Assembly: GCF_018977255.1 (NCBI RefSeq)
Contig: NW_024704892.1
Span: 1-64,000, forward strand
Source of the DNA: Callorhinchus milii
Lineage: Eukaryota
DNA: 64,000 nt
Direction: 5' to 3'
Shown here piece by piece: positions 18,092-59,954 of this stretch; within the stretch, counting starts at the first letter, position 1; every line of letters starts with the position of its first letter. The position numbers were made by a program, and so were the translations under genes. Below the pieces are notes generated by a model that did not search any database, was not told the origin of the DNA, and saw only the letters and a program-made list of their open reading frames with translations.

Positions 18092-18216
18092 CTAATGAAG
18101 TCAAACATAGATAAAGTTCAGCTCACAATGCGACACCACCAACAACAAAAAATTACATGTGTACAGAGTCTCTTACGTCCCAATTCAATCTCTGATCTCT
18201 TTATCAATCACAATTA

Positions 18217-18969: not shown

Positions 18970-19283
18970 AAATGTGAGTGCGGGCGCACAGTGAAGATGA
19001 AGCTTTGTTGCGTCTGCATCAGTGACCTGGGATTGGGGAACCGGAATGTATGGTGAGCCATATTCTCTCTCTTAAGCTGACTTGGGAATTTGGATGCACA
19101 GTGCAGAGCTCTATTCTGATTGTAATCCCAACATGGAAGAGCGGACAGAGAGTGTAGAATAAGATTTAGTCTGTCTTTATCCGTGTCCTGGAAATGCGTA
19201 CGATAGCCTGGAATGAGTTCTAAATTGACTTTAAAAATGATTTGTGAGTGTGGACAGACATTTTAGGGATTTACTGATTTATT

Positions 19284-25905: not shown

Positions 25906-25911
25906 CTTTAT

Positions 25912-28790: not shown

Positions 28791-28995
28791 CTTGTGGTTG
28801 GTTTGTCGGTTCAATTCTGGGATATTTGGTAAAGATCATTTCATACCTTCTGTTGCCAGCAGCTTCTGCCTAATGAAGTCAAACATAGATAAAGTTCAGC
28901 TCACAATGCGACACCACCAACAACAAAAAATTACATGTGTACAGAGTCTCTTACGTCCCAATTCAATCTCTGATCTCTTTATCAATCACAATTAG

Positions 28996-29748
28996 ATTCG
29001 ACCCTGAGCTGTCCTTTCTCCCTCACATCCGCACCACAACTGGCACCGCCTTCCATCACCTCCGGAACATCGCCAGACTACGGCATTACCTCACCCCTCA
29101 CGCTGCTGAAACCCTGGTTCACGCCTTTGTCACCTCAACGCTGGACTACGGGAACTCTCTCCTCGCCGGCCTTCCCGCCACCTCCCTGCACAAGCTGCAG
29201 GTCATTCAGAACTCTGCAGCTCGGTGTACTGTCCCGCACCAGCTTCGGGACCACCATCACTCCCCACCCTCGCTCACCCTCCACTGGCTCCCCTATCCCC
29301 CAGAGAATTGATTTCAAGATTTTCATCCTCACGTACAAGGCCATTCACGGCCTTGCTCCCTCCTACCTCTCCAACCTACTTCCCCCACCTACCTGCCCGT
29401 CACCCTCCGTTCCTCTGGCTCCGACTGCTCCACGTCCCCCGCCCCAACCTCCCTACCATCGGTGGTCGGGCCTTCAGCCTCTCAGCCCCGAGGCTCTGGA
29501 ACTCCATCCCCCAGTGCCTTCGCCGCTTCCTCCCTTTCCTCCTCCAAGGCCGTTCTCAAAACCTTTCTCTTTGACCGTGCCTTCAGCTCCCCTCTCGACT
29601 CTCTTCCCCCCTCCTCGCTCCTCCCTTCCCTCCCCTCAACCTGACCATTTCCCCCTGCTCGGGTCATGACCCAACTGTGCAGCGCCTTGGGACGTCCTCC
29701 TGACGTGAAAGGCGCTTTATAAATGGAATCTTGTTGTTGTTGTTGTTG
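28996..29748 (+). mobile_element. L2 LINE 3' end (duplicate of 18217-18969)
   Basis: Same flanks and tail; several small indels at 29220-29430. Confidence 0.92.
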
Positions 29749-30065
29749 AAATGTGAGTGCGGGCGCACAATGTAGATGAAGCTTTATTGTGTCTGCATCA
29801 GTGACCTGGGTTTGGGGAAACGGAGTGTATAGTGAGCCATATTCTCTCTCTAAAGCTAACTTGGGAATTTGGATGCACAGTGCAGAGGTAGATCTATTCT
29901 GATTGTAACCCCAACATGGAAGAGCGGACAGAGAGTGTAGAGTGAATTTAGTCTGTCTTTTTCCGAGATTTGCAAATGCGTATGATAGCCTGGAATAAGT
30001 TTTACATTGTCTTTAAAAATGACTTGTGAGTGTGGACAGACATTGTAGGAATTAACTGTTCTCTT

Positions 30066-33000
30066 TTATTCAGGCAGAAGGTAATCGGCATCCATGGACA
30101 AGTTGTTAACGAAATAATCTGAAAATATTAGAAATGGAAATGTAATCGCGCTTTTCAGCTGCTCTCTGAATTTAGTCTGAGTAACTGCATATATACACGT
30201 GTTTGTACAGGAATTCAACAGCTGCAGCGTGGCGCCAGTTTCATAGAAAATGTACAAAGGATCATTGGAGTCCATGTGGGGTTCTTTTTTTAAAAATCCT
30301 CCAGTATAAGATAACGGATACTTGTGTCATCTACAATAATATAAAACTGGCTAAAACAGCAAATAGTAAAACGATGGATTTCCTTCTGCTCTTTATCTCC
30401 GGATCTCTGTCACTCGCTCCTCTATTCCAGTCCCCAGTGTTGTATCCCCACAATCTACTGCGCGCTCGACTGGCCACCAGTATGTGGCTGATCGTCAGGG
30501 TGTTGAGCAGAAAAATCAGAACGAATGGTATAATTGGGATTAAAATTATGTCGAGCAGGTCAAAAGCTACCCATGCGGAAGAAGTGAAAAATTCTATTTT
30601 AATTGCGCAGCCCCGTGTTGTATTTTTAACTATTTGCACTGATGTGAACACAAAATACCAGGGAATTTTTTGCCCAATTATAAACATACTGAATACGGCG
30701 ATAACAACACAAGCAGTTTTTTCGGTGCAATATTTGGTTTTCAATTGTTGGCAACAAATAGCCACATATCGATCAAAAGTAAAGGACACAGTAAACCAAA
30801 CTGAAGTTGCCGTTATTGTTGCAAACAGGAAGGAAAGGAGTCCACAGACAGCAGTAATGGACAGAAAACTATTGGGAAAGTAAGGCGAAATAATGCGAGT
30901 CAATACCACTTCGGTGAAAATCAGCATCAGATCAGACACTGACATGGCCACCAGATAGCGGGTGATGCACTTGGAGAGACCGCACTTCCCTCCAGACAGG
31001 ATCACAATTGACACCAGGTTAGCTGTAGGAAGAGGAAAAAAGAAATGGACAGTTATAATCATTGTTTGCTACAGTTTGTCTAGTGCCGACAAAGCGAAGG
31101 ATGCGGTCTCGATTTAGGCTAAACAGTCGCCTCCTCCAACTCAGTTCTTGTTCCCGAAGATTTTTGCCTCATGGTCCATCATCAAAACTGTATGGATTAC
31201 CGGCTCAGTTAGGTGCCATTGCCTTTAATATAGGTAGCTGCTTGTCGTTAGGTTACCAAAGAGGTAAGATATATTATAGAGTCGAAAAATGCTGATGTTA
31301 TACTGACTGACATGAAAGGTTGTTGGTCTGACTGATATGGGTGAACATCAGTCTTATTTACGTAGCTTAATGGATAGATGGATGAATGCAATGGATGGAT
31401 GAATGAATCGAAGTAAGACTAACTGACTGTCGGACTTGAATGCCTTTTAGACTGAAAGACTGGACTATTCTTTATTTCATGCACCCTTTCTCCATTCATA
31501 AATCGCGCCATGACAATAGCTAGCTGACTGCACACTGACCTACATTTCGCATCGAAGAATTTACAGAAAATTCCAGTCAAATTATCTATTAGTTCGCACC
31601 CTGCCCTGAATACATATGTACGTGCTTTACCACCTACATCAAACCGAATATCATTGATTAACTGGTCATCCAGCGTTTGATTAGCCTATCATCCCTCTCT
31701 CTTCTTCTGGTGCAAAACCTCTCTTTCTGCAGGTTTTCCTACCTTTCCAAACAAGCAAAACATTAACTTTTTTTAAAAGCTCTGCATTTTGTTTCTCCAA
31801 AATCAAAAAATATTGGCTCAGCTCAATTGCGCCTTCTATCTGTGATCAGGGTTTTCACTGCACCTTTATGCTCAAGATCGATTCTGCTGCTCGAGCTCTC
31901 TGTTACTCTTTAACCTACTGACTTCTTTCTTATCCATGGATGCCTCCCTACAATACATCCATGTAGGATCCAACACTCTGGGTCCAATTCTACTGGAACT
32001 AGTGCATGTGGTTTTTCTTCTCTAAACGTTCCTCCTCACATCCTTGCACAGTGGCAGCACATGGCAGGCTACAGAATTACACATGCAGATGTCCATATTC
32101 ATGAAGAATACACCCAAATCTGACTTCATTTTCAAACTCATCAATTGATGAGTCAAATTTTGTCTTTCATCTCCATTTTAATAAACTCTTCATTCGTCTC
32201 ATTCTGTCACTAACCAGAATCACTTTTTTTCAGCTCATCCATACATTACCGAACATTATAAACGCTCTTATTCGCCCTTATACGCTTATATTACACCTTG
32301 CTTCTGAACCCACTCCACGATGGAAATACAGTTGTTACCTTTCATCCATTTTCAACCATCCATAAGATACAGCTAATGCAGAAATCCTCTGCTCACATCC
32401 ACCTCTATAACAAACGCTTTGTGCAATTTATTGAGGTTCCACCGGGTCCCTCTCCAAACTGATTCCAACAGTGTTCCTTAGTGATTCCACATCTTCAAAA
32501 TCATCATCGAAAAAATATTCTCATCACCCAAATTTTGGTTTCGTACAGTCAAATTAGTATCAGAGATAAAGGTGATTTGCCGTGACAGGAAAGCTGTCCT
32601 TCGGATAAGACATTGAATCGAGCTCTCATCTGCCTACTCAGTTGGACGTTATGGATCCCGTGGCGGTAAGCTTCATTCATTCATTCATTCATTCATTCAT
32701 TCATTCATTCATATGCCCGTATTTTTACATTCGCAAAGTATTTAATATGAACAGCCATTCACATTGCACGCAGAATACTATACGGTTGAACCCTATTGGT
32801 TTAACTATTCAAATTAGTGTTCCAATGAGTGTGCTAATGAATTTGTTGCATCGGCAACATGTAATGATCGCAGTAATTTGATTAAATAGTAAGAATTCTA
32901 TTCGACCGCTTACATTTAAAATATCTGAGTACAGCAGAATATTTTCCGACAAAGACTGTATTTGTAGGCAAACCAGTCAGCTAATCAGTACATAGCCAGC

Positions 33001-33679
33001 ATTGATGGAATGACCAATTCTACCGTAGAGACTTTATGGCAGGAAACCAGGCAAAATCTCTTTTCCTTTTCAGAGAATGCCAAAAGCTTTTCCCACAGCA
33101 AAGCTTCGAGACCCACAGCAAACACCTCCAGTTCTCCAAATTCAATTGTGAAACGATCCAACAACATCCACCTACCCACAACACGAAAAACTCAAATAAC
33201 CCCGTTTCTGATGTTGAACAGTCATACTCTCCCAAGAGGCGCAAATGCTGATTAGCAGATACCACAGAGTATAAGGAGCAGATTTGCAAGAATCAAACCT
33301 GTTCGACAGAAGAAGGAGGCTCATGGCCAATTTTGTTCTGACTAATATGTTACAAATATACTGAAAGATCTACAGATGTAAATCATTTAAACGACCGGCC
33401 TCTTGAGCTTCTCATTATAAGGAAAGCAGCTCCAAAATTGGAGCCAAGCCGCGAGCAGTCGATTTGAGTGTCAGTCTCCAGTGTGAGCAGTGAGTGACAC
33501 AGCGCAAGAAACTCCAGCTGATTTAGAGGGTAAAGAGTGCTCAAAACAGGGTCAGGCTGAACACTTTACTACATGTGCATCTAGTTAATCTACTGGTTAA
33601 ATCACTTGCCAGGAACTCCAACAGCAGCGAGAATCGGATAGTAAATGTACTGAATCCTATAAATTAGCGGAGCAGTCAT
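30066..33679 (-). pseudogene. GPR139-like GPCR, copy 3 (exon 1 33610-33679, exon 2 30066-31022)
   Basis: Open from TM1 to TM6, then TAG at 30331-30333 (TGG in copy 2) and a frameshift in the homopolymer run near 30285-30296; TM7 LLNSCTNTCIYAVTQTKFRE lies in another frame. Confidence 0.88.
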
Positions 33680-36600
33680 CCTGGCAAATGATGGTACAAC
33701 CTCCCGGTACAGGCGGCAGCTCACACTGAGAAGATGCTGTTCAAGAGCAAAAAGCTGTGTCTTTTTAAAATAAAGGGGGAACGCTTCACTGAACAATTTC
33801 AGCACACGTTCACTCACATTTTGTACCCATGGGAAGAATTATGTAATGCCACAGAGCTGAGCAATACATCTCAATGAATTTTGATCAGCTGCTCGTCTGA
33901 TTGATGCATAATCTTTTATACAAACTTGCAATAACTCATACTCTATCACGGGTGGTAACCACTGTATATGTTTAATTTGCTTTTGTTTTTAAAATGTCTG
34001 ACAAAGATCCACATATGTATATTACAGATTGAAAAAAGACAGCTTCTCTATTTCAATGCTCATTCTCTCCCTGGAGGCCGGCAATCCTCTTTATTAATAC
34101 TGGAGAGTATAAGGCACAGGTTTGCTACAAGAATAGCTTTGGGTCCCCAGAGTAGTTGCTCAGGTGCGTCTTAGCCTGTTTTCGAGTTTAAAAAGATCAA
34201 AATGAAACACTTGGCACAGATAAATATGTTCCATTGAATTCCAAAATGATCTCAATACATTATATTATCTGCTTTTGCGATATTGCTGTGCAATTGCACA
34301 GACGTGTTTGTTTACAGATGCACAACGACATTACGCGAAGCATTCAAATACTCTTTTGACGTGAAACAACACAGTGCATTAGACCAGAAGATATGCTACA
34401 CGAGAAGAAAAGGTGAATCCAGGTCGCCTTCCACCTTCCTGGCGGTCAAGTGCACAAATATCCGAAACTATCTATGTTCTATATTTCATAATGTTATATT
34501 CCGAAAGAAAACTCTCTTATGTGTGTTTGAAAGAATCAACACTTGCTGCTTCAACCATCTCCCATGGGGGCCTGTTCCACGTGTTCACTAATCGCTCACT
34601 GAAATAATATTTTCGTTGAATCATACTGAATTTACCCCCTTCATTTGCAGGCCGTGTCCTCGGGTTTTGCTATTCTGGACAAGTTGAGACAGCCTGTAAT
34701 GATCTGTGTTATATGGCCACGTTAGAATCTTAAGGACAGCAATCACGTTGCCTCTCAATGTCCTTCTTCCAGTGTGAACATATTTACTTAGTCCCTTCTC
34801 TCAGTCCAGTTCCTCTGTTCCCTAAATCATTTAAGTCGCCCTATTCTGTATCTAACAGTTCATCAGCACATCCGCCGCAAGCGATATACATTCTGACTAT
34901 ATTTTCTCTCCTATCATGTACCCAGTTTCACATAATATATATAGGTTAGGTGATGCGACAAGGACAGGCATCTGGATGCTTGCCAGCCAGTTCTCTCAGT
35001 GACAGGCTTTGAAGCTGTTACTGGCGAATCTGCAGCCGAGCTCAATCACACAATTTGTTTTGTCTGCTCTGGACTGATCAGACAGATGATCACCAAATAT
35101 AAGGCAACACACAATCAGATATTTATTAACTGGCCCTCTTCACTGACATCATTCTTTGACTCTCCTTTGCATCCATTGCAATACCTTTTAATCTTTCCTA
35201 ATACGAGAAATCTGAACACAGCGCTGCAGTTGCAATGTAACCAATGATATGCACAAATATGCCATTGACAGCTGAATTTTGTTTTCTATGATTCTACCTA
35301 TAGAACCAAGAATACTGTCAGATTTCCACAGATATTTCGTCATCCAACAATCTGAAGGATATGCTGCTTGTCACTTCCAGTTACAGAGATAAAGCCACCT
35401 CTAATGTGCCTTTGCTCCTCTGCTACTCGCAGGAAACTGCCAGTCAGTATGTAAAACCTTCCCTCGTCCTTTCTGCCCAAATGGTAAACTTACATTTTGC
35501 TTCTTTAAACTTCAGCTTTCACCGATCGGCCCGTTCCACTTATATATTGAATTCCTGCTGCTTGTACACGTTGATATAACATTGAATCTTTTCCTTAAGA
35601 TTGTGAGATAGACATCTTCGAGTTCCGCCTGTTATGTCAAATGAAACTGAGGCACAATATAGTGACTAAATACAGTAGAGTGATTTTATGTGAACATAGT
35701 TTTTGCCACTGTTTGCAGCTGTTAAAAGTTTAACAAAGCACTATTTTTATGAAAGCGAATCACAAAATTTATGATCAGAAGCCTGCACTGTATTTATGCT
35801 ACAAATTATATAACACGAAAGGAATTAAACTGTAGAATTTTTTTAAAAAGTCATTGATTTATGAACATGGAAGCTTCATGAACGAAACTTCCTATCTAAA
35901 GGCCAGTTTTTCAGTTAGGATCAGTTCAGTTGGTGCTCGGGACTGGATTTTGTCATTCGGAGAATCATAGGATCACAGCATTATACAGAACAGAAGGAGG
36001 CCATTCAGACCACACTGTCTTTGCCGGCTATCTGAAAGCGGCTATCCAAATCAACTCTACTCACCTGCACTCTCCCAATAGTTCAGGAAAGTTTCCCTTG
36101 CCCCCCCCCACCCCCACCTCGCCCCACCCTCACCCCCACATAATTAGTTTGGATTGAATCGGTTTCCAAAACCCTTTCACGCAATGCATTCCAGATGGAA
36201 ACAACTTGCTGCTTGAAAAGAAATTTCATCTTCTCCCACCTGTTTCTTTCAGCAACTATTTTAAGTTGTGCCCTTGCGTTACCGACCGACAAGCCAGTGG
36301 CAAAATTTTCTCCTTATCTTCTCTGTTTAAGCCCCTCAAAATTGGGAATACTTCTATTAACTCAACTCTTAACCTTCTTTGCTCCAGAGAGATTAATGCT
36401 TCCATAGCCTCTCCTGATAACTGAAGTTGCTATTTCCTGGTATCATCCTGGTCAATCTCATTTGCATCCTGTGCAATGCCTTGACATCCTTCCTGATGTT
36501 TGGAGCCGTGAACCGAAAACAGTGCAATAGCTGAGGCTCAACCAATGATTTATATCAGTACGTCATATATTCCTGACGTTTGTATAATATTCCCCTGTTG

Positions 36601-36984
36601 ATCAAGCTTGGAATCCAGTACGCTTTTTTTGAAAGAGTTTTCTACCTGTCCTACCACCTTCAAACAGGCCCTGCTTTCTTTATCACATCCTGATCGCTGT
36701 ATAACAGGCCTCGTATAAACATAACAGTCTGATCTGTCATCAAGTCGTGCATATTGTGACCGTTCGTGGCGAGTCTAGTGAGGGAGAGAGATCGAAAATT
36801 GGTAGCAGCACAAAGACACACAGAGAGAGGGAGAGAGAGAAAGAAAGAGTGGGAAATACTTTTCAAAGTGAAGAAATGTTTCCAAAACTCCCAGGTTTTA
36901 CTATTAATATTATTTATTATTTATTGTTTATTATTCACTTTTTATTTTTTAGTGTCTCTTGTTCAAAATCACTAAAAAGCCTGA

Positions 36985-42740: not shown

Positions 42741-44593
42741 TCAGGTATTCTTGCCAGACGAGCGTTCCTTGAGCTTCACTCTCCCGAAAGTCAAGTTGGG
42801 TAATGCTTTTTTCAGCCTCTCGTGTAACTGAATAAAACAATCAATTAACCTGTAGATTAGAGCGGCTCAGAGCACAGACTGTAGTGACTTATCGAAAGCT
42901 GGTGGGTTTGTGAAGGACAAAACTATTTAATATGATCGTCATAAAATTCACTGCGATGGATATCGCGTCTTTCATTCTGTTTGTACATCTCAAAGGGCTT
43001 CACAGGCTATAATGTAAAGTGTGTATGTTTTGTAGGCTGAACGGGGCAGCCAATTTGCACGCAGCAAGTTCCCACAAGGAGTGAGCGAGCAATTTTATTT
43101 GGAGGGTAGCTGGCGAGATCACAGGGAGAAACTCCCTTCTCTTTCCAACTGTCCCATGGGGTCTTTGCCGTCCACCTGAAACAGGAAACAGTGACAAGAG
43201 GAAGGCTACAGGAAGCTGTAGCTCAGTGTGTGGTCAGGGCTGGAGCTCATGTTTTCACGCTGTGAAGCAACATTTCATGTCCAATGACTTACCTGCCCCA
43301 AAATCGACGCCTTCAGTTGCTCAAGTTCTTCCGGAGTCGGAGGATTTCCTCGTACGTGATGCCGAGAGTTAGAGGCACAAAATGGCATTCTAAACAAAAA
43401 AAAGTTTCTTTATCTCACATTGAGGCACCGATTCTTCAATAGCTGACCCACAGCTAGAGTCGTAGACGTAACATTGGACATCGCCATAGAGCCACAGCAA
43501 CAATAACCCCGTTTACACAGCGCCTCTCACACAGGGCAGCGACCCAGAGCGCTTGACAGTGATGGATTATGACGCTGAGGTGGGGGGAGGTGACCGTCGG
43601 GTCGGTCAAAGAGGAAGGTCTTCAGGCACGACCTGAAGGTGGGGCAGGAAGGGACTAGAGGGAGAAGTAGAGGAGGCGTGTCCCAAAGTTTGAGGGCACA
43701 GAGGCTGAAAGCGCGGCCATCGATAGTTTCAAGTGACAAAGAGGAGGACGGAGCCAGTCGAGCGGAGACAGTGGGTAAGGACCGGGGAGCTGGGGTGGGT
43801 GGTGGCCGGGTTGGGGAAGACGGGGACGGGTGACGGTTAAGCAGGTCGGAGAGGTATGGAGGTGCGAGGACATGAAGGGATATGAAAACGAGTGAGAGGG
43901 TTCCCTGCGCCATCCTCCCCACACACACAATGGCTCATTCCCTTGAACCCTGTGGCTCCCGTTGCACTGTCTCCCTGATCAGAGATAGGCATGCGAGCGC
44001 CATTGGTGGGATATCATCTTAACTCAACACCGCAAATGTAAGACAATCATTTGGGAAATAACGGGGTTTGTGGGGAAATGTAGCGAATCTGATCAAAAGA
44101 CCTGCCACAATTCAATCAACTCTCTGAAGAGACTTCCTGGGCTGAACGGTCTACTCCTGTCCCCAGTTTGATTACTCTTGAGAGTTAGGTCCCAGTGAGT
44201 CAAAGTGTAGGTTACCGGGCACGGTGAGGTGAGGTAGGGATCAGGTGAGACAGGTGAAGGGAGTTGTGGAGTTTGGGAGGGGGTTGGTGATGGATGTTGG
44301 GGGTTTGGATGGGGTGTTGATGTGGGATTGGGGGCTTGCTGGGTTGTTGGGGTGGGGTTAGGAATTTGGGTTTCGGGGTTGGGGATTGATTGGAGGCAGT
44401 TGGGGATTGGGGTGCTGCGGGTTGGGGTTTCGTGGGGAGAGTCCAGATGACACAGCAAAGACAATGTAAAGAGGTGTCAACTGGTTGAGAATCGCTGAGA
44501 TACAAAGTGGACTGACCAGGATTGTCATCACAGAATCCCTGATCCTCGATGTTCGATGGCCTCATGGGAGGAGAGACGGTGTTGGTTGTCTAT
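42741..44593 (-). CDS. Putative 3' exons of the lectin-mucin gene (44517-44593, 43293-43389, 42741-42827)
   Basis: Strong splice sites (ctctctccacag| and |gtcagt; tttgtttag| and |gtaagt; ttttattcag|). Reconstructed DRQPTPS/PPMRPSNIEDQGFCDDNP-ECHFVPLTLGITY/GNPPTPEELEQLKASILGQ-LHERLKKALPNLTFGRVKLKERSSGKNT* needs a frameshift in each of the first two exons. Confidence 0.55.
43500..43905 (-). mobile_element. Older L2 3' fragment
   Basis: LAPPYLSDLL...IDGRAFSLCALKLWD...FRSCLKTFLFDR. Confidence 0.8.
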
Positions 44594-45290: not shown

Positions 45291-45603
45291 ACGTCTATTA
45301 AATTCTGTAAACCAGACCAGACACCTGCTTCACTGCCATTGAACTGTGATGACCTTAGTTCAGTTGTAGAACTGATTGAGCAAAACCCCAGAGTCCAATA
45401 GGAGGCTCCAAGTTGTAAAGTTTTACCGTCAGGAACACGGCCCTAACTGGTAACCCAGGGACACTGACCTGGCTAATGAGCAACATCATCTGGAGTGTCT
45501 GACAAGTTGTGTGGTTTGTATCAACTCCACACCAGGAGCTACTGTCTGACTCACTAAACGGTTGGCGATAAGCAGCAGGACAGACTGGTGAGCACTTAAT
45601 CAC

Positions 45604-48600
45604 TTGTCTCAATGTGGGTCCCGGTAACGGTGCTCTCGGGAGTCGCTGTAGGATCTGCTATGTAGGGATAAGGGGAGCTGGGATTTGGAGGAGGAGAGTC
45701 CGAGATCTGGGGAAGGGCAGGTGGAACTGAAAGATCAGAATTGGGAATGAACGAAAAGGTTTGAATTCACGGATGAACATTGTCAGGAGCCACCCTCAGA
45801 AACAGAGGCCCTAACGGGCAGCCCATGGACCCTGATCTAGCTCTGAGCGAGAGGTGGGCTCGGTTGCTGGGCCCTGTGATGGGGTGAAGAAGTCTCTGGC
45901 GGCTGTGGATGGGGTGGTTTCAGGAGCTGCAGTGGACGGAGCTGTTGGTGTGGTTCCCTGTGTAACTTAACATGTGGGAGTTACTGACCATTACATTATC
46001 TCAGATAAAATTGCACCATCTGAAAGAGTAACCTTGCAGCCACAGCCCAAACTATCGGGTAGGTTGTTCCTAGCTAGACAAGCAATGAGAAAGTTTACCA
46101 AACTGAGCTCTCTGCGGAATGCAGTTTTCACCGTTTAGATTCCAGCAGTTTCCCAAACACAAAGTCTGGTCTCCTCAAGCCTTAGCTCTTGCTAATCTGC
46201 ACCTCCCTTTGGAAATAGGCAAACAGATTTGTCCCTCAAGGGAGAGAGAGAGAGAGAGAGAGAGAGAGGCAGAGAGAGAGATGGAGTAAGAGAGAGGGAG
46301 AGGGATAGTGAGAGAGGAAGAGATAGAGAGAAAGAGAGATTGAGAGATAGTAAGCGCATTCCTATCCAACAATCTATCTCTCGGATTTCCATGTGCAGTT
46401 GGGCTGCATGGAAATGTCAGTTGGATTTGTATACTATAAAATACGATTATGGGTTTCCGCGTGTGTCAGATACCTGGCTGCCCGAAAGAAATATATTTCA
46501 GGACGCCACTGCCTAAACGGTGAGCACTTGGCAACTGAAGACAAAATCGTTACAAATTGATTAAGTATTATTATTAATATTATAATTAATATTATTATCC
46601 TGACTGCTGCGGTAATATTAAAGGCTGATCGGAATTTTCCCACCATTTTCATGTGAGACAACTGCCCGGGCACTTACTGGGAGGATCATCTGAAGCAGAG
46701 CGTTTCGGTGTTGTCCCATGAGATGTATCTGCTGAGTGGAGGCTTGTGGTGTCTGTGTGAGACGCGGGAGTCTCGCTTGGAGTCGCCGATGGCTGTGGAT
46801 CTGTGGAGACACAAGAACGGTTACCATGTGCTGCTCCAAATATTTGTGGAGGCCTATAGCTCAGTGGTTAGAGAACACACCAGACGACATGTGTTCGATT
46901 CAAGGGCGGTTTATGGCCAAACGTTGGGCAAGTTTCCTCACTGAACACACACAGACACACACATCTGTTCACCTTGCAGTAAAGACTGGTGCGCCTTTAC
47001 TTACCTCTCACAATTGGTGTCCCGGTAAAGACTCTGTCGTTAGTTGGTTTAGGTATATCTATGCTGGGAGGAGGAGAGCTGGAAGTTGGAGGAGGAGAGT
47101 CCTTGCTCTGGGGAAGGGCAGCTGGATCTGAAAGACCTGAATTGGGAATCAATTATAGGATTTGAAGTAACAGAAGAACTTTGTTCGGAGCCACCATCAA
47201 AATCACAGGCCCTAACTGGCAGCCCAATGAAACTGACCTGGCTTTGAGCGGGAGGTGGGCTGGGTTGCTGATCTCTGTGATGGGGTGAAGGTGTCTCTGG
47301 CGGCTGTGGATGGGGTGGTTTCTGGAGCGGCAGTGGTCGTAGCTCTTGCTGTAATTTCCTCTGTAACTAAAAATGTGGGAGTTAATGTCCCTCGTAATCT
47401 GTTGGCTAAAAATGCACCCGCTGCAAGATTAACCCTGCAGCCCAAACTCTGTCTAACGGCGAGGGTGGTCCTCGCTGGATAAGCAGTGGGAATGTTTACC
47501 AGACAGCGCTTTCAGCGGCATACTATGCAGTTTTCGCTGCTTTGGCTCCAGCAGTTTCCCCAACAGTAATTTTGGTGTCCTCAAACCTTGGCACTTGCCA
47601 ACTTGCGCCTCTCTCTTGAATTATGTAAGCAGGATGTGTCCCTCGAGGGAGAGAGTGCGAGAGAGTGCTTTCCATTCTCATAATCTATCCCTATGATTTC
47701 CATGTGAAGTTGGGCTCCATGGAAATCTCAGTTGGATTTGGATACACTTAAGCACGGTGTTGGTTTTCGATTTGTGTCAGAAACCCGGTTGATCACGATG
47801 ATGGTTTTCCCTGTGTGTCAGACACACGGCTGGTCAGCGTGATGAGTTTCCACGTGTGTCAGACACCCGGCCTTCCAAAATAAACATATGTGTATATAAA
47901 TATATATATGTGTATATATATATACATATAAGTTTGTACTGCTTAAACGTTGAGCACTTGGCAATTCATGACTAAATCGTTGCTAATTTTAATAATTATT
48001 ATTATTATCATGACACCTTGGGAATTCCTAAGGGCTGCTAGAAATTTTCCCACCATTTTCAAGTGAGACAAATTCCGGCACTTACGAGGAGGATCATCAA
48101 ACTTGGAGGCTTCCTGTGTTGACCAATGGGATATATATGCTGAGTGGAGGCTTGTGGTGTCTGTGTGAGACGCGGGAGTCTGGCTTGGAGTCTCCGATGG
48201 CTGTGGATCTGTGGAGACACAATAACGGTTACCATGTGTGGCTCCAAATATTTGTGGAGGCCTATAGCTCAGTGGTTAGAGAACACGCCAGAGGACATGT
48301 CTTCGTTTCAAGGGCGGGTTATGGCCGAACGTTGGGCAAGTTTCCTCACTGAACACACACAGGCACACACATCTTTGTTCACCTTGCAGTAAAGACTGGT
48401 GCGCCTTTACTTACCTGTCACACTTGGTGTCCAGGTAAAGACTCTGTCGTGAGTTGGTTTAGGTACATCTATGCTGGGAGGAGGAGAGCTAGAAGTTGGA
48501 GGAGGAGAGTCCGTGCTCTGCGGAAGGGCAGCTGGATCTGAAAGACCTGAATTAGGAATCAATTATAGGATTTGAAGTAACAGAAGAACTTTGTTCGGAG

Positions 48601-51600
48601 CCACCATCAAAATCACAGCCCCTAACTGGCAGCCCAATGAAACTGACCTGGCTTTGAGCGGGAGGTGGGCTGGGTTGCTGAGCTCTGTGATGGGGTGAAG
48701 GTGTCTCTGGCGGCTGTGAATGGGGTGGGATCAGGAGCGGCAGTGGGCGTAGCTCTTGCTGTATTTTCCTCTGTAACTAAAAATGTGGGAGTTAATATCC
48801 CTCGTAATCTGTTGGCTAAAAATGCACCCGCTGCAAGATTAACCCTGCAGCCCAAACTCTGTCTAACGGCGAGGGTGGTCCTCGCTGGATAAGCAGTGGG
48901 AATGTTTACCAGACAGCGCTTTCAGCGGCATACTATGCAGGTTTCGCTGCTTAGGCTCCAGCAGTTTCCCCAACAGAAATTTTGGGGTCCTCAAACCTTG
49001 GCACTTGCCAACTTGCGCGTCTCTCTTGAATTATGTAAGCAGGATGTGTCCCTCGAGGGAGAGAGTGCGAGAGAGCGCTTTCCATTCTCATGATCTATCC
49101 CTATGAATTCCATGTTTTGTTGGGCTCCATGGAAATCTCAGTTGGATTTAGATACACTTAAGCACGGTGTTGGGTTTCGATTTGTGTCAGAAACCCGGTT
49201 GATCACGATGATGGTTTCAAGGGCGGGTTATGGCCGAACGTTTGGCAAGTTTCCTCACTGAACACACACAGGCACACACATCTTTGTTCACCTTGCAGTA
49301 AAGACTGGTGCGACTTTACTTACCTGTCACTCTTGGTGTCCCGGTAAAGACTCTGTCGTGAGTTGGTTTAGGTAAATCTATGCTGGGAGGAGGAGAGCTA
49401 GAAGTTGGAGGAGGAGAGTCCGTGCTCTGCGGAAGGGCAGCTGGATCTGAAAGACCTGAATTGGGAATCAATTATAGGATTTGAAGTAACAGAAGAACTT
49501 TGTTCGGAGCCACCATCAAAATCACAGCCCCTAACTGGCAGCCCAATGAAACTGACGTGGCTTTGAGCGGGAGGTGGGCTGGGTTGCTGATCTCTGTGAT
49601 GGGGTGAAGGTGTCTCTGGCGGCTGTGGATGGGGTGGTTTCTGGAGCGGCAGTGGTCGTAGCTCTTGCTGTAATTTCCTCTGTAACTAAAAATGTGGGAG
49701 TTAATGTCCCTCGTAATCTGTTGGCTAAAAATGCACCCGCTGCAAGATTAACCCTGCAGCCCAAACTCTGTCTAACGGCGAGGGTGGTCCTCGCTGGATA
49801 AGCAGTGGGAATGTTTACCAGACAGCGCTTTCAGCGGCATACTATGCAGTTTTCGCTGCTTTGGCTCCAGCAGTTTCCCCAACAGTAATTTTGGTGTCCT
49901 CAAACCTTGGCACTTGCCAACTTGCGCCTCTCTCTTGAATTATGTAAGCAGGATGTGTCCCTCGAGGGAGAGAGTGCGAGAGAGTGCTTTCCATTCTCAT
50001 AATCTATCCCTATGATTTCCATGTGAAGTTGGGCTCCATGGAAATCTCAGTTGGATTTGGATACACTTAAGCACGGTGTTGGTTTTCGATTTGTGTCAGA
50101 AACCCGGTTGATCACGATGATGGTTTTCCCTGTGTGTCAGACACACGGCTGGTCAGCGTGATGAGTTTCCACGTGTGTCAGACACCCGGCCTTCCAAAAT
50201 AAACATATGTGTATATAAATATATATATGTGTATATATATATACATATAAGTTTGTACTGCTTAAACGTTGAGCACTTGGCAATTCATGACTAAATCGTT
50301 GCTAATTTTAATAATTATTATTATTATCATGACACCTTGGGAATTCCTAAGGGCTGCTAGAAATTTTCCCACCATTTTCAAGTGAGACAAATTCCCGGCA
50401 CTTACGAGGAGGATCATCAAACTTGGAGGCTTCCTGTGTTGACCAATGGGATATATATGCTGAGTGGAGGCTTGTGGTGTCTGTGTGAGACGCGGGAGTC
50501 TGGCTTGGAGTCTCCGATGGCTGTGGATCTGTGGAGACACAATAACGGTTACCATGTGTGGCTCCAAATATTTGTGGAGGCCTATAGCTCAGTGGTTAGA
50601 GAACACGCCAGAGGACATGTCTTCGTTTCAAGGGCGGGTTATGGCCGAACGTTGGGCAAGTTTCCTCACTGAACACACACAGGCACACACATCTTTGTTC
50701 ACCTTGCAGTAAAGACTGGTGCGCCTTTACTTACCTGTCACACTTGGTGTCCAGGTAAAGACTCTGTCGTGAGTTGGTTTAGGTACATCTATGCTGGGAG
50801 GAGGAGAGCTAGAAGTTGGAGGAGGAGAGTCCGTGCTCTGCGGAAGGGCAGCTGGATCTGAAAGACCTGAATTAGGAATCAATTATAGGATTTGAAGTAA
50901 CAGAAGAACTTTGTTCGGAGCCACCATCAAAATCACAGCCCCTAACTGGCAGCCCAATGAAACTGACCTGGCTTTGAGCGGGAGGTGGGCTGGGTTGCTG
51001 AGCTCTGTGATGGGGTGAAGGTGTCTCTGGCGGCTGTGGAATGGGGTGGGATCAGGAGCGGCAGTGGGCGTAGCTCTTGCTGTATTTTCCTCTGTAACTA
51101 AAAATGTGGGAGTTAATATCCCTCGTAATCTGTTGGCTAAAAATGCACCCGCTGCAAGATTAACCCTGCAGCCCAAACTCTGTCTAACGGCGAGGGTGGT
51201 CCTCGCTGGATAAGCAGTGGGAATGTTTACCAGACAGCGCTTTCAGCGGCATACTATGCAGGTTTCGCTGCTTAGGCTCCAGCAGTTTCCCCAACAGAAA
51301 TTTTGGGGTCCTCAAACCTTGGCACTTGCCAACTTGCGCGTCTCTCTTGAATTATGTAAGCAGGATGTGTCCCTCGAGGGAGAGAGTGCGAGAGAGCGCT
51401 TTCCATTCTCATGATCTATCCCTATGAATTCCATGTTTTGTTGGGCTCCATGGAAATCTCAGTTGGATTTAGATACACTTAAGCACGGTGTTGGGTTTCG
51501 ATTTGTGTCATAAACCCGGTTGATCACGATGATGGTTTCAAGGGCGGGTTATGGCCGAACGTTTGGCAAGTTTCCTCACTGAACACACACAGGCACACAC

Positions 51601-54600
51601 ATCTTTGTTCACCTTGCAGTAAAGACTGGTGCGACTTTACTTACCTGTCACACTTGGTGTCCCGGTAAAGACTCTGTCGTGAGTTGGTTTAGGTAAATCT
51701 ATGCTGGGAGGAGGAGAGCTAGAAGTTGGAGGAGGAAAGTCCGTGCTCTGCGGAAGGGCAGCTGGATCTGAAAGACCTGAATTGGGAATCAATTATAGGA
51801 TTTGAAGTAACAGAAGAACTTTGTTCGGAGCCACCATCAAAATCACAGCCCCTAACTGGCAGCCCAATGAAACTGACCTGGCTTTGAGCGGGAGGTGGGC
51901 TGGGTTGCTGATCTCTGTGATGGGGTGAAGGTGTCTCTGGCGGCTGTGGATGGGGTGGGTTCAGGAGCGGCAGTGGGCGTAGCTCTTGCTGTATTTTCCT
52001 CTGTAACTAAAAATGTGCGGGTTAATATCCCTCGTAATCTGTTGGCTAAAAATGCACCCGCTGCAAGATTAACCCTGCAGCCCAAACTCTGTCTAACGGC
52101 GAGGGTGGTCCTCGCTGGATAAGCAGTGGGAATGTTTACCAGACAGCGCTTTCAGCGGCATACTATGCAGGTTTCGCTGCTTAGGCTCCAGCAGTTTCCA
52201 CACCAGAAATTTTGGGGTCCTCAAACCTTGGCACTTGCCAACTTGCGCGTCTCTCTTGAATTATGTAAGCAGGATGTGTCCCTCGAGGGAGAGAGTGCGA
52301 GAGAGCGCTTTCCATTCTCATAATCTATCCCTATGAATTCCATGTTTTGTTGGGCTCCATGGAAATCTCAGTTGGATTTAGATACACTTAAGCACGGTGT
52401 TGGGTTTCGATTTGTGTCAGAAACCCGGTTGATCACGATGATGGTTTCAAGGGCGGGTTATGGCCGAACGTTTGGCAAGTTTCCTCACTGAACACACACA
52501 GGCACACACATCTTTGTTCACCTTGCAGTAAAGACTGTTGCGACTTTACTTACCTGTCACTCTTGGTGTCCCGGTAAAGACTCTGTCGTGAGTTGGTTTA
52601 GGTACATCTATGCTGGGAGGAGGAGAGCTAGAAGTTGGAGGAGGAGAGTCCGTGCTCTGCGGAAGGGCAGCTGGATCTGAAAGACCTGAATTGGGAATCA
52701 ATTATAGGATTTGAAGTAACAGAAGAACTTTGTTCGGAGCCACCATCAAAATCACAGCCCCTAACTGGCAGCCCAATGAAACTGACGTGGCTTTGAGCGG
52801 GAGGTGGGCTGGGTTGCTGATCTCTGTGATGGGGTGAAGGTGTCTCTGGCAGCTGTGGATGGGTTGGGTTCAGGAGCGGCAGTGGGCGTAGCTCTTGCTG
52901 TATTTTCCTCTGTAACTAAAAATGTGGGAGTTAATGTCCCTCGTAATCTGTTGGCTAAAAATGCACCCGCTGCAAGATTAACCCTGCAGCCCAAACACTG
53001 TCTAACGGCGAGGGTGGTCCTCGCTGGATAAGCAGTGTGAATGTTTACAAGACAGAGCTTACAGCGGCATACTATGCAGTTTTCGCTGCTTAGGCTCCAG
53101 CAGTTTCGCTACAGAGATTTTGGGGTCCTCAAATCTTGGCACTTGCCAACTTGCGTCTCTCTCTTGAATTATGTAAGCAGGATGTGTCCCTCGAGGGAGA
53201 GATTGCGAGAGAGCGCTTTCCATTCTAATAATCTATCCCTATGATTTCCATGTGTAGTTGGGCTGCATGAAAATCTCAGTTGGATTTCGATACACTTAAG
53301 CACGGTGGTGGGTTTCGATTTGTGTCAGAAACCCGGTTGATTACGATGATGGCTTTCCGTGTGTCAGACACCCGGCTGGTCAGGGTGATGAGTTTCCACG
53401 TGTGTCAGACACCCGGCTGTCCAAAATAAACATATATGTCTGTAAATATATAATTATATATACATATGTATATATATACATATGATTGTAATGCTTAAAC
53501 GTTGAGCACTTGGAAATTCATAACAAAATCGTTGTTATTTTATTAATTATTATTATTATCATGACAGCTGGGGAATTCCTAAGGGCTGCTGGAAATTTTC
53601 CCAGCATTTTCATGTGAGACAAATGCCCGGCACTTACGAGGAGTTTCATCAAACTTGGAGTCTTCCTGTGTTGACCAATGGGATATATCTGCTGAGTGGA
53701 GGCTTGTACTGTCTGTGTGAGACGCGGGAGTCTCGCTTGGAGTCGCCGATGGCTGTGGATCTGTGGAGACAGAAGAACGGTTACCATGTGCGGCTCCAAA
53801 TATTTGTGGTGGCCTATAGCTCAGTGGTTAGAGAACACGCCAGAGGACATGTGTTTGATTCAGGGGCGGGTTATGGCCAAACGTTGGGCAAGTTTCCTCA
53901 CTGAACACACACAGACACACACATCTCTGTTCACCTTGCAATAAAGACTGGTGCGCCTTTACTTACCTGTCACTCTTGGTGTCCCGGTAAAGACTCTGTC
54001 GTGAGTTGGTTTAGGTATATCTATGCTGGGAGGAGGAGAGCTGGTACTTGGAGGAGGAGAGTCCGTGCTCTGGGGAAGGGCAGCTGGATCTGAAAGACCT
54101 GAATTGGGAATCAATTCTAGGATTTGAAGTAACAGAAGAACTTTGTTCGGAGCCACCATCAAAATCACAGGCACTAACTGGCAGCCCAATGAAACTGACC
54201 TGGCTTTGAGCGGGAGGTGGGCTGGGTTGCTGATCTCTGTGATGGGGTGAAGGTGTCTCTGGCGGCTGTGGATGGGGTGGTTTCTGGAGCGGCAGTGGTC
54301 GTAGCTCTTGCTGTAATTTCCTCTGTAACTAAAAATGTGGGAGTTAATGTCCCTCGTAATCTGTTGGCTAAAAATGCACCCGCTGCAAGATTAACCCTGC
54401 AGCCCAAACTCTGTCTAACGGCGAGGGTGGTCCTCGCTGGATAAGCAGTGGGAATGTTTAGCAGACAGCGCTTTCAGCGGCATACTGTGCAGGTTTCGCT
54501 GCTTAGGCTCCAGCAGTTTCCCTACAGAGATTTTGGGGTCCTCAAATCTTGGCACTTGCCAACTTGCGTCTCTCTCTTGAATTATGTAAGCAGGATGTGT

Positions 54601-57146
54601 CCCTCGAGGGAGAGATTGCGAGAGAGCGCTTTCCATTCTAATAATCTATCCCTATGATTTCCATGTGTAGTTGGGCTGCATGAAAATCTCAGTTGGATTT
54701 CGATACACTTAAGCACGGTGGTGGGTTTCGATTTGTGTCAGAAACCCGGTTGATTACGATGATGGCTTTCCGTGTGTCAGACACCCGGCTGGTCAGGGTG
54801 ATGAGTTTCCACGTGTGTCAGACACCCGGCTGTCCAAAATAAACATATATTTCTGTAAATATATAATTATATATACATATGTATATATATACATATGATT
54901 GTAATGCTTAAACGTTGAGCACTTGGAAATTCATAACAAAATCGTTGTTATTTTATTAATTATTATTATTATCATGACAGCTGGGGAATTCCTAAGGGCT
55001 GCTGGAAATTTTCCCAGCATTTTCATGTGAGACAAATGCCCGGCACTTACGAGGAGTTTCATCAAACTTGGAGTCTTCCTGTGTTGACCAATGGGATATA
55101 TCTGCTGAGTGGAGGCTTGTACTGTCTGTGTGAGACGCGGGAGTCTCGCTTGGAGTCGCCGATGGCTGTGGATCTGTGGAGACAGAAGAACGGTTACCAT
55201 GTGCGGCTCCAAATATTTGTGGAGGCCTATAGCTCAGTGGTTAGAGAACACGCCAGAGGACATGTGTTCGATTCAGGGGCGGGTTATGGCCAAACGTTGG
55301 GCAAGTTTCCTCACTGAACACACACAGACACACACATCTCTGTTCACCTTGCAATAAAGACTGGTGCGCCTTTACTTACCTGTCACTCTTGGTGTCCCGG
55401 TAAAGACTCTGTCGTGAGTTGGTTTAGGTATATCTATGCTGGGAGGAGGAGAGCTGGTATTTGGAGGAGGTGAGTCCGTGCTCTGGGGAAGGGCAGCTGG
55501 ATCTGAAAGACCTGAATTGGGAATCAATTATAGGATTTGAAGTAACAGAAGAACTTTGTTCGGAGCCACCATCAAAATCACAGCCCCTAACTGGCAGCCC
55601 AATGAAACTGACCTGGCTTTGAGCGGGAGGTGGGCTGGGTTGCTGATCTCTGTGATGGGGTGAAGGTGTCTCTGGCGGCTGTGGATGGGGTGGTTTCAGG
55701 AGCGGCAGTGGTCGTAGCTCTTGCTGTAATTTCCTCTGTAACTAAAAATGTGGGAGTTAATGTCCCTCGTAATCTGTTGGCTAAAAATGCACCCGCTGCA
55801 AGATTAACCCTGCAGCCCAAACTCTGTCTAACGGCGAGGGTGGTCCTCGCTGGATAAGCAGTGGGAATGTTTACCAGACAGCGCTTTCAGCGGCATACTG
55901 TGCAGGTTTCGCTGCTTAGGCTCCAGCAGTTTCCCTACAGAGATTTTGGGGTCCTCAAATCTTGGCACTTGCCAACTTGCGTCTCTCTCTTGAATTATGT
56001 AAGCAGGATGTGTCCCTCGAGGGAGAGATTGCGAGAGAGCGCTTTCCATTCTAATAATCTATCCCTATGATTTCCATGTGTAGTTGGGCTGCATGGAAAT
56101 CTCAGTTGGATTTCGATACACTTAAGCACGATGGTGGGTTTCGATTTGTGTCAGAAACCCGGTTGATCACGATGATGGCTTTCCGTGTCTCAGACACACG
56201 GCTGGTCAGCGTGATGAGTTTCCACGTGTGTCAGACACCCGGCTGTCCAAAATAAACATATATGTCTGTAAATATATATATATACATATGTATATACATA
56301 CATATGATTGTAATGCTTAAACGTTGAGCACTTGGAAATTCATGACAAAATCGTTGCTAATTTTAATAATTATTATTATTATCATGACAGCTGGGGAATT
56401 CCTAAGGGCTGCTGGAAATTTTCCCAGCATTTTCAAGTGAGACAAATTCCCGGCACTTACGAGGAGTTTCATCAAACTTGGAGGCTTCCTGTGTTGACCA
56501 ATGGGATATATCTGCTGAGTGGAGGCTTGTGGTGTCTGTGTGAGACGCGGGAGTCTCGCTTGGAGTCGCCGATGGCTGTGGATCTGTGGAGACAGAAGAA
56601 CGGTTACCATGTGCGGCTCCAAATATTTGTGGTGGCCTATAGCTCAGTGGTTAGAGAACACGCCAGAGGACATTTGTTCGATTCAGGGGCGGGATATGGC
56701 CAAACGTTGGGCAAGTTTCCTGACTGAACACACACAGACACACACACCTCTGTTCACCTTGCAGTAGAAATTGCTGCGCACTTACTTACCCGTCACACTT
56801 GGGTTCCTAGTAAAGACTCTCTGATGAGTTGCTTTAGGTGCAGCGATGCTGGGAGGAGGATAGCTGGAAAGTGGAGATGGAGTGTCCGTGCTCTGGGGGA
56901 GTGCAGGTGGAACTGAGAGACCAGAATTGGGAATAAAGGAGAGTTTTAAGTCACGGATGAACTATGTTCGGAGCCACCGTCAGAAACACAGCCCCTAAAG
57001 GGTAGCCCATGAACACTGACCTGGCTCTGAGCGGGAGGCGGGCTCGTTTGGTGGGCTCTGTGATGGGGTGAAAGTGCCTCTGGCCGCTTTGGATGGGGTG
57101 ATTTCAGGAGCTGCAGTGGACGGAAATGTTGTTGGTGTTTTTCTCT
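45604..57146 (-). CDS. Tandem array of symmetric mucin-like (P/T/S-rich) exons in 1.41 kb and 0.91 kb repeat units
   Basis: Type A (EEITARATTTAAPETTPSTAARDTFTPSQRSATQPTSRSKP): 57021-57146, 55613-55735, 54200-54322, 52787-52909, 51878-52000, 50968-51091, 49557-49679, 48648-48770, 47238-47360. Type B (DPAALPQSTDSPPPSTSSPPPSIDIPKPTHDRVFTGTPRVT): 56790-56912, 55380-55502, 53967-54089, 52554-52676, 51645-51767, 50735-50857, 49324-49446, 48415-48537, 47005-47127, 45604-45726. Type D (DPQPSATPSETPASHTDTTSLHSADISHWSTQEASKFDETP): 56461-56583, 55051-55173, 53638-53760, 50406-50528, 48086-48208, 46678-46800. All have cag| acceptors and GT donors, phase 1-1. Confidence 0.82.
46241..46345. repeat. (GA)n microsatellite
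   Basis: Direct reading. Confidence 0.95.
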
Positions 57147-57453: not shown

Positions 57454-57834
57454 CTGCGTAACAGACGAAAGGGCCAGTTTGTTGACATCCAGTGTCATGC
57501 CATAAACCACCAGCACCATATCCACCGTTGATCACACGGACACATACTGAAATCTTTGTATACTCATTCGGCTCCACATATCCCCAGTGTGTATAATTGG
57601 CGTTGTCTCCATTTGACCATTTCCAGCCGGCCTCAGTCTGGTCATTATTGTACAGCCCGATCCAGACGTATTGACTTCCAAGAAACAGAGGATCAATGAG
57701 CCTCTTCTCCTCTGGACTCCGGATGCTGACGAGTTCCATGTAGTGATTGCGGCAGTGATCCCGGGCTTCAGTCCAGGTTCTGTCCTTGTTGATCCTGTGA
57801 TACTCTCTGTCCGGGGATTGGATGGTCTGTACAG
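57454..57834 (-). CDS. C-type lectin domain exon (381 nt, phase 1-1)
   Basis: [43 protein letters not shown]...VWIGL...WKWSNG...[11 protein letters not shown]...CV...LWHDTGC...PFVCYA; four conserved Cys, WIGL, EPN, WHD; ctcttcccag| acceptor and |gtaatg donor. Confidence 0.93.
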
Positions 57835-59832: not shown

Positions 59833-59872
59833 CTGGAAATAGCAGCAACAGCAGAAGGAACAGGTCCTTCAT
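59833..59872 (-). CDS. Signal-peptide exon of the lectin-mucin gene (exon 59833-59906)
   Basis: acaATG context, MKDLFLLLLLLFP, ends in phase 1 and joins the CTLD exon in frame; acceptor gtgttacag|; donor |gtcctt is weak. Confidence 0.75.
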
Positions 59873-59954
59873 TGTGACTTGGGTGTTCGACACCAAAAAA
59901 CAGCATCTGTAACACAGGAGGCAATATTACTGAGCACAGAGACTGGGAGAGTGA

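What the first reader, a model, noticed from the sequence alone, without database searches (positions are those of the whole stretch)
45604..57146. Three dissimilar exon types share the same 123-nt length and symmetric phase
Types A, B and D differ strongly in sequence, yet by my counting 23 of 25 copies are exactly 123 nt (first A is 126, one A is 124), all phase 1-1. This suggests an old triplication of one ancestral exon followed by recent amplification of the multi-exon block. Any exon can be skipped without changing frame, so stalk length and composition could vary combinatorially by alternative splicing (inference).
Basis: partly seen in the sequence, partly recalled or inferred. Interest (0 to 1): 0.7.

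Follow-up and report, generated by a model that had tools for sequence, protein, structure and literature searches.

The report
Elephant shark lectin-mucin with repeated exons
The repeats are real exons of an elephant shark gene for a predicted secreted lectin with a long, likely sugar-coated middle region that was recently multiplied; a spliced transcript gives the three exon types as 129, 132 and 123 bases and their sequences show no kinship, so the matching length is likely a coincidence.

Summary
The array (10 A, 10 B, 6 D exons, minus strand) is the Pro/Thr/Ser-rich middle of a transcribed gene: signal peptide, one C-type lectin exon, the array, three C-terminal exons, no membrane anchor found. 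A spliced contig from one RNA-type run instead uses upstream AGs: A 129, B 132, D 123, period 384 nt. First-position A exons of paralogues are 126 nt; 123 arose by a one-codon deletion. A, B and D show no homology beyond composition, and D shares its acceptor flank with the 78-nt exon E, so an old triplication is not supported. Phase 1-1 is forced by the flanking exons. Recent amplification is confirmed (units 2-9 are 95-100% alike), and three units lost D by a genomic deletion, so composition varies at DNA level. Exon skipping is possible but was not seen. Multi-exon mucin domains are known (chicken Muc13, Xenopus Otogl), and this scan noted similar arrays on other shark or ray DNA. Verdict: ordinary, a new member of a known kind.

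The parts
59833..59906 (-). Signal-peptide exon (ATG at 59872; 40 coding nt, ends in phase 1)
   Evidence: conserved in paralogues at 83-85%
57454..57834 (-). Single-exon C-type lectin domain, 381 nt, phase 1-1 (P0001); EPN motif present, WHD where WND is usual
   Evidence: PF00059 E 1.8e-19; coordinates; translation
57021..57146 (-). A1, first-position A exon, 126 nt
   Evidence: same length as the first A of the intact paralogues
56790..56912 (-). B1, 123 nt (no upstream AG)
56461..56583 (-). D1, 123 nt, both ends seen spliced
   Evidence: joints 55741/56461 and 56583/55380
55613..55741 (-). A2, 129 nt as spliced (123 by the downstream AG at 55735)
   Evidence: intron 55742-56460 CT..AC
55380..55511 (-). 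B2, 132 nt as spliced (123 by the downstream AG at 55502)
   Evidence: 101-nt intron CT..AC at cut +3; same joint on unit 9
55051..55173 (-). D2, 123 nt
46678..54328 (-). Units 3-9: seven A, seven B, four D. Unit lengths 1413, 909, 909, 1412, 909, 1410, 1401; the 909-bp units 4, 5, 7 lack D through a 505-bp genomic deletion with a GTTT microhomology
45837..45959 (-). A10, diverged terminal copy with homologous acceptor and donor both mutated; likely dead in this assembly
45604..45726 (-). B10, diverged terminal copy, 123 nt, weak donor
45420..45480 (-). Fossil copy of the A donor and its intron flank (psiC), also present after B in short paralogues
   Evidence: E 6e-11
44517..44593 (-). Exon E, 77 nt as assembled, 78 in paralogues and in DNA contigs; phase 1-1; acceptor flank related to D's
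   Evidence: (one base put in behind 44564 in 3 of 3 DNA runs)
43293..43389 (-). Exon F of the C-terminal domain, 97 nt as assembled, 98 in contigs
   Evidence: one base put in behind 43347 in 4 of 4 runs; spliced to G in X1
42741..42827 (-). Last coding exon G with stop codon

Best explanation
The array is the Pro/Thr/Ser-rich middle of a transcribed elephant shark gene for a predicted secreted C-type lectin, in which a three-exon block was recently multiplied, likely by unequal crossing-over, and the shared 123-nt length is likely a coincidence of three unrelated exons plus the choice of acceptor. Steps. (1) Shown: short paralogues read signal - lectin - A(126) - B(123) - E(78) - F - G. (2) Shown: a longer layout adds D(123) and a second A with a one-codon deletion (123), shared by this gene and paralogue C1543; D's acceptor flank is related to E's, so D likely arose by local copying of that splice site (inferred). 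(3) Shown: in this gene the block gained in-frame AGs upstream of A and B and was amplified to eight near-identical internal units; three lost D by genomic deletion. (4) Shown in one contig: splicing gives 129-132-123 in order. (5) Inferred: because the lectin exon ends and exon F starts in phase 1, only phase 1-1 exons of length 3n survive here; selection keeps frame and composition, not sequence. (6) Predicted function: about 1,070 residues of O-glycosylated extended chain between a lectin head and a small C-terminal domain, a mucus-type recognition protein whose length likely varies between alleles and paralogues.
For: Architecture and paralogues. Spliced lengths and 384-nt period. No A/B/D homology. 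D-E acceptor link: 73% over 25 nt against 29% shuffled, z 5.6, E 3e-7 to 8e-7. The 3-nt deletion is in all 10 second-position A copies examined and in none of the 8 first-position ones. Units 2-9 form one clade, 100/100 support. dN/dS about 1 in the array (A 1.09, B 0.97, D 1.26; pooled, non-independent pairs); P+T+S 51-55%, no stops in 24 of 24 exons translated (A6 and A10 left out). Indels: 1 exonic against 14 intronic events in units 2-9 (binomial p 0.067; 0.014 if A6 is an assembly error). Frameshifts in E and F absent from independent contigs. No hydrophobic segment after the signal in 3 of 3 paralogue models (max KD19 0.82).
Against: The RNA evidence is one collapsed contig from one run whose RNA status is the tool's guess; contigs drop rare forms, so the downstream (123-nt) acceptors may also be used. 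At the stage seen in paralogue C1543 the second A, B and D are all 123 nt by genome sequence; under an assumed exon-length distribution three of four equal has p about 0.001-0.002 and any equal pair about 0.08-0.12, so chance is adequate for B = D but the near-match 126/123/123 keeps some surprise. The indel contrast is weak and many intronic events lie in simple repeats. Glycosylation, secretion and sugar binding are untested.
Confidence: 0.8

Rival explanations
1. A, B and D descend from one ancestral 123-nt exon by an old triplication and have since diverged beyond recognition.
For: B and D are both 123 nt and second-position A is 123 nt at the homologous acceptors. Local copying of exon parts did happen in this gene (psiC from A, D acceptor from E). 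Mucin exons change fast (dN/dS about 1).
Against: In-register identity B-D is 29.4% against 31.1% shuffled; A-B and A-D are likewise at chance. Within about 0.2 changes per site the family already shows in-frame indels of 3, 12 and 15 nt, so length would not be expected to outlast sequence. Ancestral A is 126. D's acceptor flank is still 73% like E's, too young for its body to have saturated against B (inference).
Confidence: 0.07
2. Whatever their origin, the symmetric exons are spliced combinatorially, so one allele makes many mucin lengths.
For: All exons are phase 1-1 and 3n long. Weak sites exist: C at donor -1 in A4 and A7, tandem acceptors in A and B, a dead A10 that must be skipped or handled otherwise. 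Precedents: proposed for chicken Muc13 (PMC1552070), stated for FIM-C.1 (PMC7177656) and SmPoMuc (PMC2576457).
Against: The one array contig runs unbroken through A-B, B-D and D-A. Variation in block composition is already written in the DNA (units 4, 5, 7 lack D), so a B-A junction alone would not prove skipping.
Confidence: 0.2
3. The locus is a pseudogene or the array is an assembly artefact.
For: As assembled, E and F are frameshifted, A6 has an extra base and A10 has lost its splice sites. Units 6-7 and 8-9 are 98.6% alike.
Against: The E and F frameshifts are absent from independent contigs; F-G and A-B-D are seen spliced. Units differ by up to 5%. Contigs of the internal unit are several times deeper than single-copy flank in 3 of 3 DNA runs (98-109 vs 17; 77-111 vs 18-24; 42-60 vs 10-11), a hint only, since the tool says depth is no copy number.
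Confidence: 0.05

Closest known systems
Chicken Muc13 multi-exon PTS domain (PMC1552070; passages read)
   Same: PTS domain written as tandem exons; the authors propose length variation by recombination or by alternative splicing and note a multi-exon PTS in zebrafish Muc13.
   Different: There one exon is one 20-aa repeat in a transmembrane SEA mucin. Here the repeat is a block of two or three unrelated exons (128 aa for A-B-D) in a predicted secreted lectin.
Xenopus Otogl (PMC5789918; passages read) and FIM-C.1 (PMC7177656; passages read)
   Same: Secreted mucins; Otogl has a multi-exon mucin domain; FIM-C.1 is described as polymorphic through alternative splicing and carries lectin-like TFF modules.
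   Different: Gel-forming or TFF mucins with other domains; no C-type lectin head; splicing variation is reported for FIM-C.1 and not shown here.
Callorhinchus milii automatic models 'macrophage mannose receptor 1-like' (P0002), 'cell surface glycoprotein 1-like' (P0005), 'C-type lectin-like' (P0007), 'layilin-like' (P0008), 'extensin-like' (P0015)
   Same: Direct paralogues: 67-70% identical lectin domain, same A, B, D, E, F, G exons; P0002, P0005, P0007 and P0008 map to G000 loci with segments at 95-100% identity.
   Different: They carry one to five PTS exons; this gene carries 25-26. The names are similarity labels: no membrane anchor or mannose-receptor architecture was found.
Fugu group F1 soluble dual-CTLD proteins (PMC514892; passages read)
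   Same: Soluble fish proteins with C-type lectin domains resembling the mannose receptor; fast evolving; paralogue P0002 has two lectin domains.
   Different: This gene has one lectin domain and a mucin array; no phylogenetic test of membership was run.
Schistosoma mansoni SmPoMuc (PMC2576457; abstract and section list only)
   Same: Multi-gene mucin family with recombination and repeat polymorphism.
   Different: Multiple splice variants are demonstrated there; unrelated lineage and sequence.

Membership tests
Mucin with multi-exon PTS domain (Muc13-type gene layout) | P/T/S-rich repeats encoded by tandem exons that are spliced together | tested here: met
   P+T+S 51-55%; spliced A-B-D-A contig
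Mucin with multi-exon PTS domain (Muc13-type gene layout) | One exon equals one repeat unit | tested here: not met
   The repeat unit is A-B-D or A-B
Mucin with multi-exon PTS domain (Muc13-type gene layout) | Dense O-glycosylation | not testable with these tools
   Inferred from composition only
MUC13 / SEA transmembrane mucins | Transmembrane segment | tested here: not met
   Max 19-residue hydropathy 0.18-0.82 after residue 25 in 3 of 3 paralogue models; stop in exon G
MUC13 / SEA transmembrane mucins | SEA domain | tested here: inconclusive
   No Pfam SEA hit at E<=1 in P0002 or P0008; single-sequence model of P0015 is low confidence (pLDDT 51.5) and best Z was 5.1
C-type lectin domain superfamily | PF00059 above the curated cut-off | tested here: met
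   70.9 bits against 22.6; best solved relatives are mannose-receptor family domains
Calcium-dependent sugar-binding C-type lectins | Complete calcium site 2 (EPN or QPD, a following Glu, WND); motif definition recalled, from no call | tested here: inconclusive
   EPN present, WHD for WND, Ser where the Glu is usual (read); binding not tested
Fugu group F1 soluble dual-CTLD proteins | Two or three CTLDs, no transmembrane domain | tested here: not met
   One CTLD exon in this gene; paralogue P0002 has two
Fugu group F1 soluble dual-CTLD proteins | Groups with F1 in a CTLD tree | not tested
   No tree of lectin domains was built
Exon family from one ancestral exon (A, B, D) | Detectable homology of exon bodies or flanks among A, B and D | tested here: not met
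Combinatorially spliced cassette array | Skipping isoforms in RNA | tested here: inconclusive
   Only contigs of one RNA-type run; in-order junctions seen

The most novel reading that the evidence does not exclude
Three unrelated exons were pushed by selection to modules of about 41-44 residues, and the amplified cassette, with its in-frame tandem acceptors, is spliced combinatorially to give a secreted lectin with a tunable mucin reach: a splice-diversified innate recognition protein specific to chimaeras.
Probability: 0.07. Interest if true: 0.55.

Novelty: new member of a known kind. Interest (0 to 1): 0.24.

Why it matters
Modestly. It is a clear case of a lectin gene turning into a mucin-like protein by exon-block amplification, with the short ancestral layouts still present as paralogues in the same genome, so the order of steps can be read. 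It also shows that exon lengths counted from genome sequence alone can mislead: new upstream AGs changed two of three lengths. If combinatorial splicing were shown, it would test an idea proposed for chicken Muc13 in 2006 (PMC1552070).

Tried and rejected
In X1, A1, B1, B10, E and most of the lectin exon had no or only partial cover: no conclusion drawn. No skipping joint of this gene and no D-less genomic joint appeared among the joints shown (15 of 172, 15 of 26); contigs drop rare forms, so this is no evidence of absence. No extra base at the position matching A6 was listed or 28: not proof. Whether the A10 donor is intact in other animals could not be read; neighbouring variants were listed but 71 rows were hidden. 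A-B downstream-flank score (z 4.2 against mononucleotide shuffles) was not confirmed by nhmmer or by in-register identity. Weak A-D 21-nt match (E 0.02-0.13 in a tiny database, at most 2.5 bits) rejected as compositional. Lectin dN/dS control was out of frame and discarded; redone for one pair only (0.74; 1 of 4 loci matched the motif); the exon F values used wrong coordinates and are discarded. C-terminal domain: no match to teleost C-terminal tails by hhalign on shallow alignments (probability 0.1%), no informative fold match, no relative outside this species by sequence (3 hits of 9 candidates; 5 hits, of which P0016 and P0017 are unrelated repeats). Literature searches for this gene family found nothing specific: 1 paper, listing only; 0 papers; the library lacks most subscription journals. 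PMC4948705 and PMC2592719 (passages) gave only background; the latter reports frame-preserving bias in young exons. No supplements were read.
Full report
What is there. The window's self-comparison shows a tandem array at about 45.6-57.2 kb. On the minus strand it lies between a 381-nt exon encoding a C-type lectin domain (57834-57454; PF00059, 70.9 bits) and three further exons E, F, G ending in a stop at 42741. A signal-peptide exon lies at 59906-59833. A search of the own genome found close copies of the lectin exon on contigs C206, C167, C1543, C47, C721 and C1162. Database proteins named for Callorhinchus milii map to those loci with segments at 95-100% identity, so the organism is the elephant shark.

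The count. With acceptors homologous to those of the paralogues, the array holds A1 126 nt, seven A of 123, A6 of 124, ten B of 123 and six D of 123: 23 of 25, as reported. All are phase 1-1. A 26th copy, A10, has lost both that acceptor and its donor. The units are 1411, 1413, 1413, 909, 909, 1412, 909, 1410 and 1401 bp; units 4, 5 and 7 lack D through one 505-bp deletion. Units 2-9 are 94.9-100% identical over A-intron-B and form one clade (100/100), while units 1 and 10 are 77-79% identical to them. The 25 copies therefore stand for three lengths.

What the RNA uses. Units 2-9 have gained AG dinucleotides 6 nt upstream of A and 9 nt upstream of B. Run X1, which the tool only guesses to be RNA, holds contigs with four exact intron removals: F-G, A-B, B-D and D-A. 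The 414-nt array contig matches A2, B2 and D1 with one mismatch; its joints are 55741/56461 (719-nt intron, CT..AC on the plus strand), a 101-nt A-B intron that starts B at 55511, and 56583/55380. Its ends overlap by 30 nt (55692-55721), so the mRNA period is 384 = 129 + 132 + 123 nt. Laid on unit 9 it gave the same joints. Use of the first AG after the branch point is the usual scanning rule (own knowledge). If all internal copies behave so, 8 of 25 copies are 123 nt. Limits: one collapsed contig, one run; minor use of the downstream AGs cannot be excluded. Two deeper X1 contigs of paralogue type support the ancestral acceptors: one joins a B end to the 126-type A start (loose end at 45947), another starts B at the 123-type site (9 letters between 47118 and 47238).

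History of the lengths. First-position A is 126 nt in the window, C206, C167, C47a, C721 (two copies) and C1543; C47b is 124 and the broken C30 copy 121, both with frameshifts. In an alignment of 18 A-B segments (C721's second copy, B 122 nt, left out) a single 3-nt deletion marks all 10 second-position copies (window units 2-10, second A of C1543) and none of the 8 first-position ones, including the most distant, C30. So A went 126 to 123 to 129. B is 123 in most paralogues, 96 in the second B of C1543, lost in C167. D was found only in the window and C1543 among the loci fetched.

Common ancestry test. Eight A, eight B, four D and three E sequences were compared. In-register identity and local scores for A-B, A-D and B-D lie at chance against codon shuffles (z -0.7 to 0.8; B-D 29.4% vs 31.1%), while within-type identity is 73-86%. 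Profiles of each type found no other type above 2.5 bits on exon bodies. The same methods do detect two real links: D's acceptor flank with E's (73% over 25 nt, z 5.6; E 3e-7 to 8e-7) and A's donor flank with a fossil copy after B (E 6e-11). E is 78 nt. The region was thus built by local copying of splice-site pieces, and D's traceable relative is not a 123-nt exon. An assumed log-normal exon-length distribution gives 0.014-0.020 for two named exons being equal, 0.08-0.12 for any pair among four, and 0.001-0.002 for three of four (the distribution is an assumption). B = D is an unremarkable coincidence; the passing stage with three 123s is the residue of surprise.

Symmetric phase. The signal exon, lectin exon and E all end in phase 1 and F starts in phase 1, so any exon added here must be 1-1 and 3n to keep the frame (inference from established exon-shuffling logic). 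Both new acceptors are in frame, which fits selection on frame.

Is it a working gene? As assembled, E and F each lack one base. Independent contigs put the base in: F in 4 of 4 runs, E in 3 of 3 DNA runs, X1 not covering it. A6 differs from A8 only by one base in a run. In units 2-9 there is 1 exonic against 14 intronic indel events (369 vs 1044 bases; p 0.067, or 0.014 without A6; many intronic events sit in simple repeats). Exonic indels in intact paralogues are 3, 12 and 15 nt; frameshifting ones occur in C30, C47b, C721's second B and A6. dN/dS is about 1 within the array and 0.54-2.3 against paralogues, 0.74 for the lectin exon (one pair) and 0.46 for G (one pair). The exons are 51-55% P+T+S with no stop in 24 of 24 translated; the array would add about 1,070 residues.

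How it likely works. Shown: signal peptide, lectin domain, spliced PTS array, short C-terminal domain, no hydrophobic anchor in three paralogue models. Inferred: secretion, O-glycosylation and an extended chain that holds the lectin head far from the C-terminal domain, as a mucus-type recognition protein. Sugar binding is uncertain: EPN is present, WND reads WHD (motif recalled). The C-terminal domain is predicted weakly as strand-helix and has no assigned family. Length and composition vary in DNA: between paralogues, and between units through loss of D. Unequal crossing-over is the likely driver, given 1413-bp and 2320-bp higher-order periods and diverged end units. Skipping would be in frame but is not shown.

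Comparison with what is known. Multi-exon PTS domains are described for chicken and zebrafish Muc13, with the alternative-splicing idea already proposed (PMC1552070, passages), and for Xenopus Otogl (PMC5789918, passages); splice polymorphism is stated for FIM-C.1 (PMC7177656, passages) and SmPoMuc (PMC2576457, abstract). Soluble mannose-receptor-like fish lectins are described as group F1 (PMC514892, passages); membership is not met on domain number and not tested by tree. Searches found no paper on this family. The scan's own notes list several shark or ray mucins built from tandem symmetric exons on other DNA (unchecked), and nothing near this place.

Verdict. Observation partly confirmed; amplification and symmetry right, triplication unsupported, combinatorial splicing unshown. 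New member of a known kind; interest 0.24.

Noticed in passing
window 18013-36684: Segmental tandem duplication of about 5.4-kb period (94-99% identical) holding a rhodopsin-family receptor ORF (19525-20184, minus; PF00001 E 2e-16) and LINE-like fragments.
   Followed up: partly
window 45420-45480 and after B in C206, C47, C721, C30: Fossil copy of exon A's donor and intron flank, 135 nt after B10; too close to B to be a separate exon.
   Followed up: partly
L013:8806-8448 and 2443-2086 (G000:C721): Independent 6.4-kb duplication of an A-B unit with a partial lectin exon between; an X1 contig of this paralogue type joins a B end to an A start.
   Followed up: partly
window 52787 and 49557: A4 and A7 have C instead of G at the last exon base, a weaker donor; B3 has a further in-frame AG giving 150 nt.
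   Followed up: no
L017 and L018 (G000:C30 about 721000 and 730400): Two inverted, broken copies of lectin-A-B, and clusters of more distant lectin exons on C30, C124 and C463.
   Followed up: partly
G000:C1:15560409-15560548: A 140-bp piece 79% like the A end, A-B intron and B start, on another contig.
   Followed up: no
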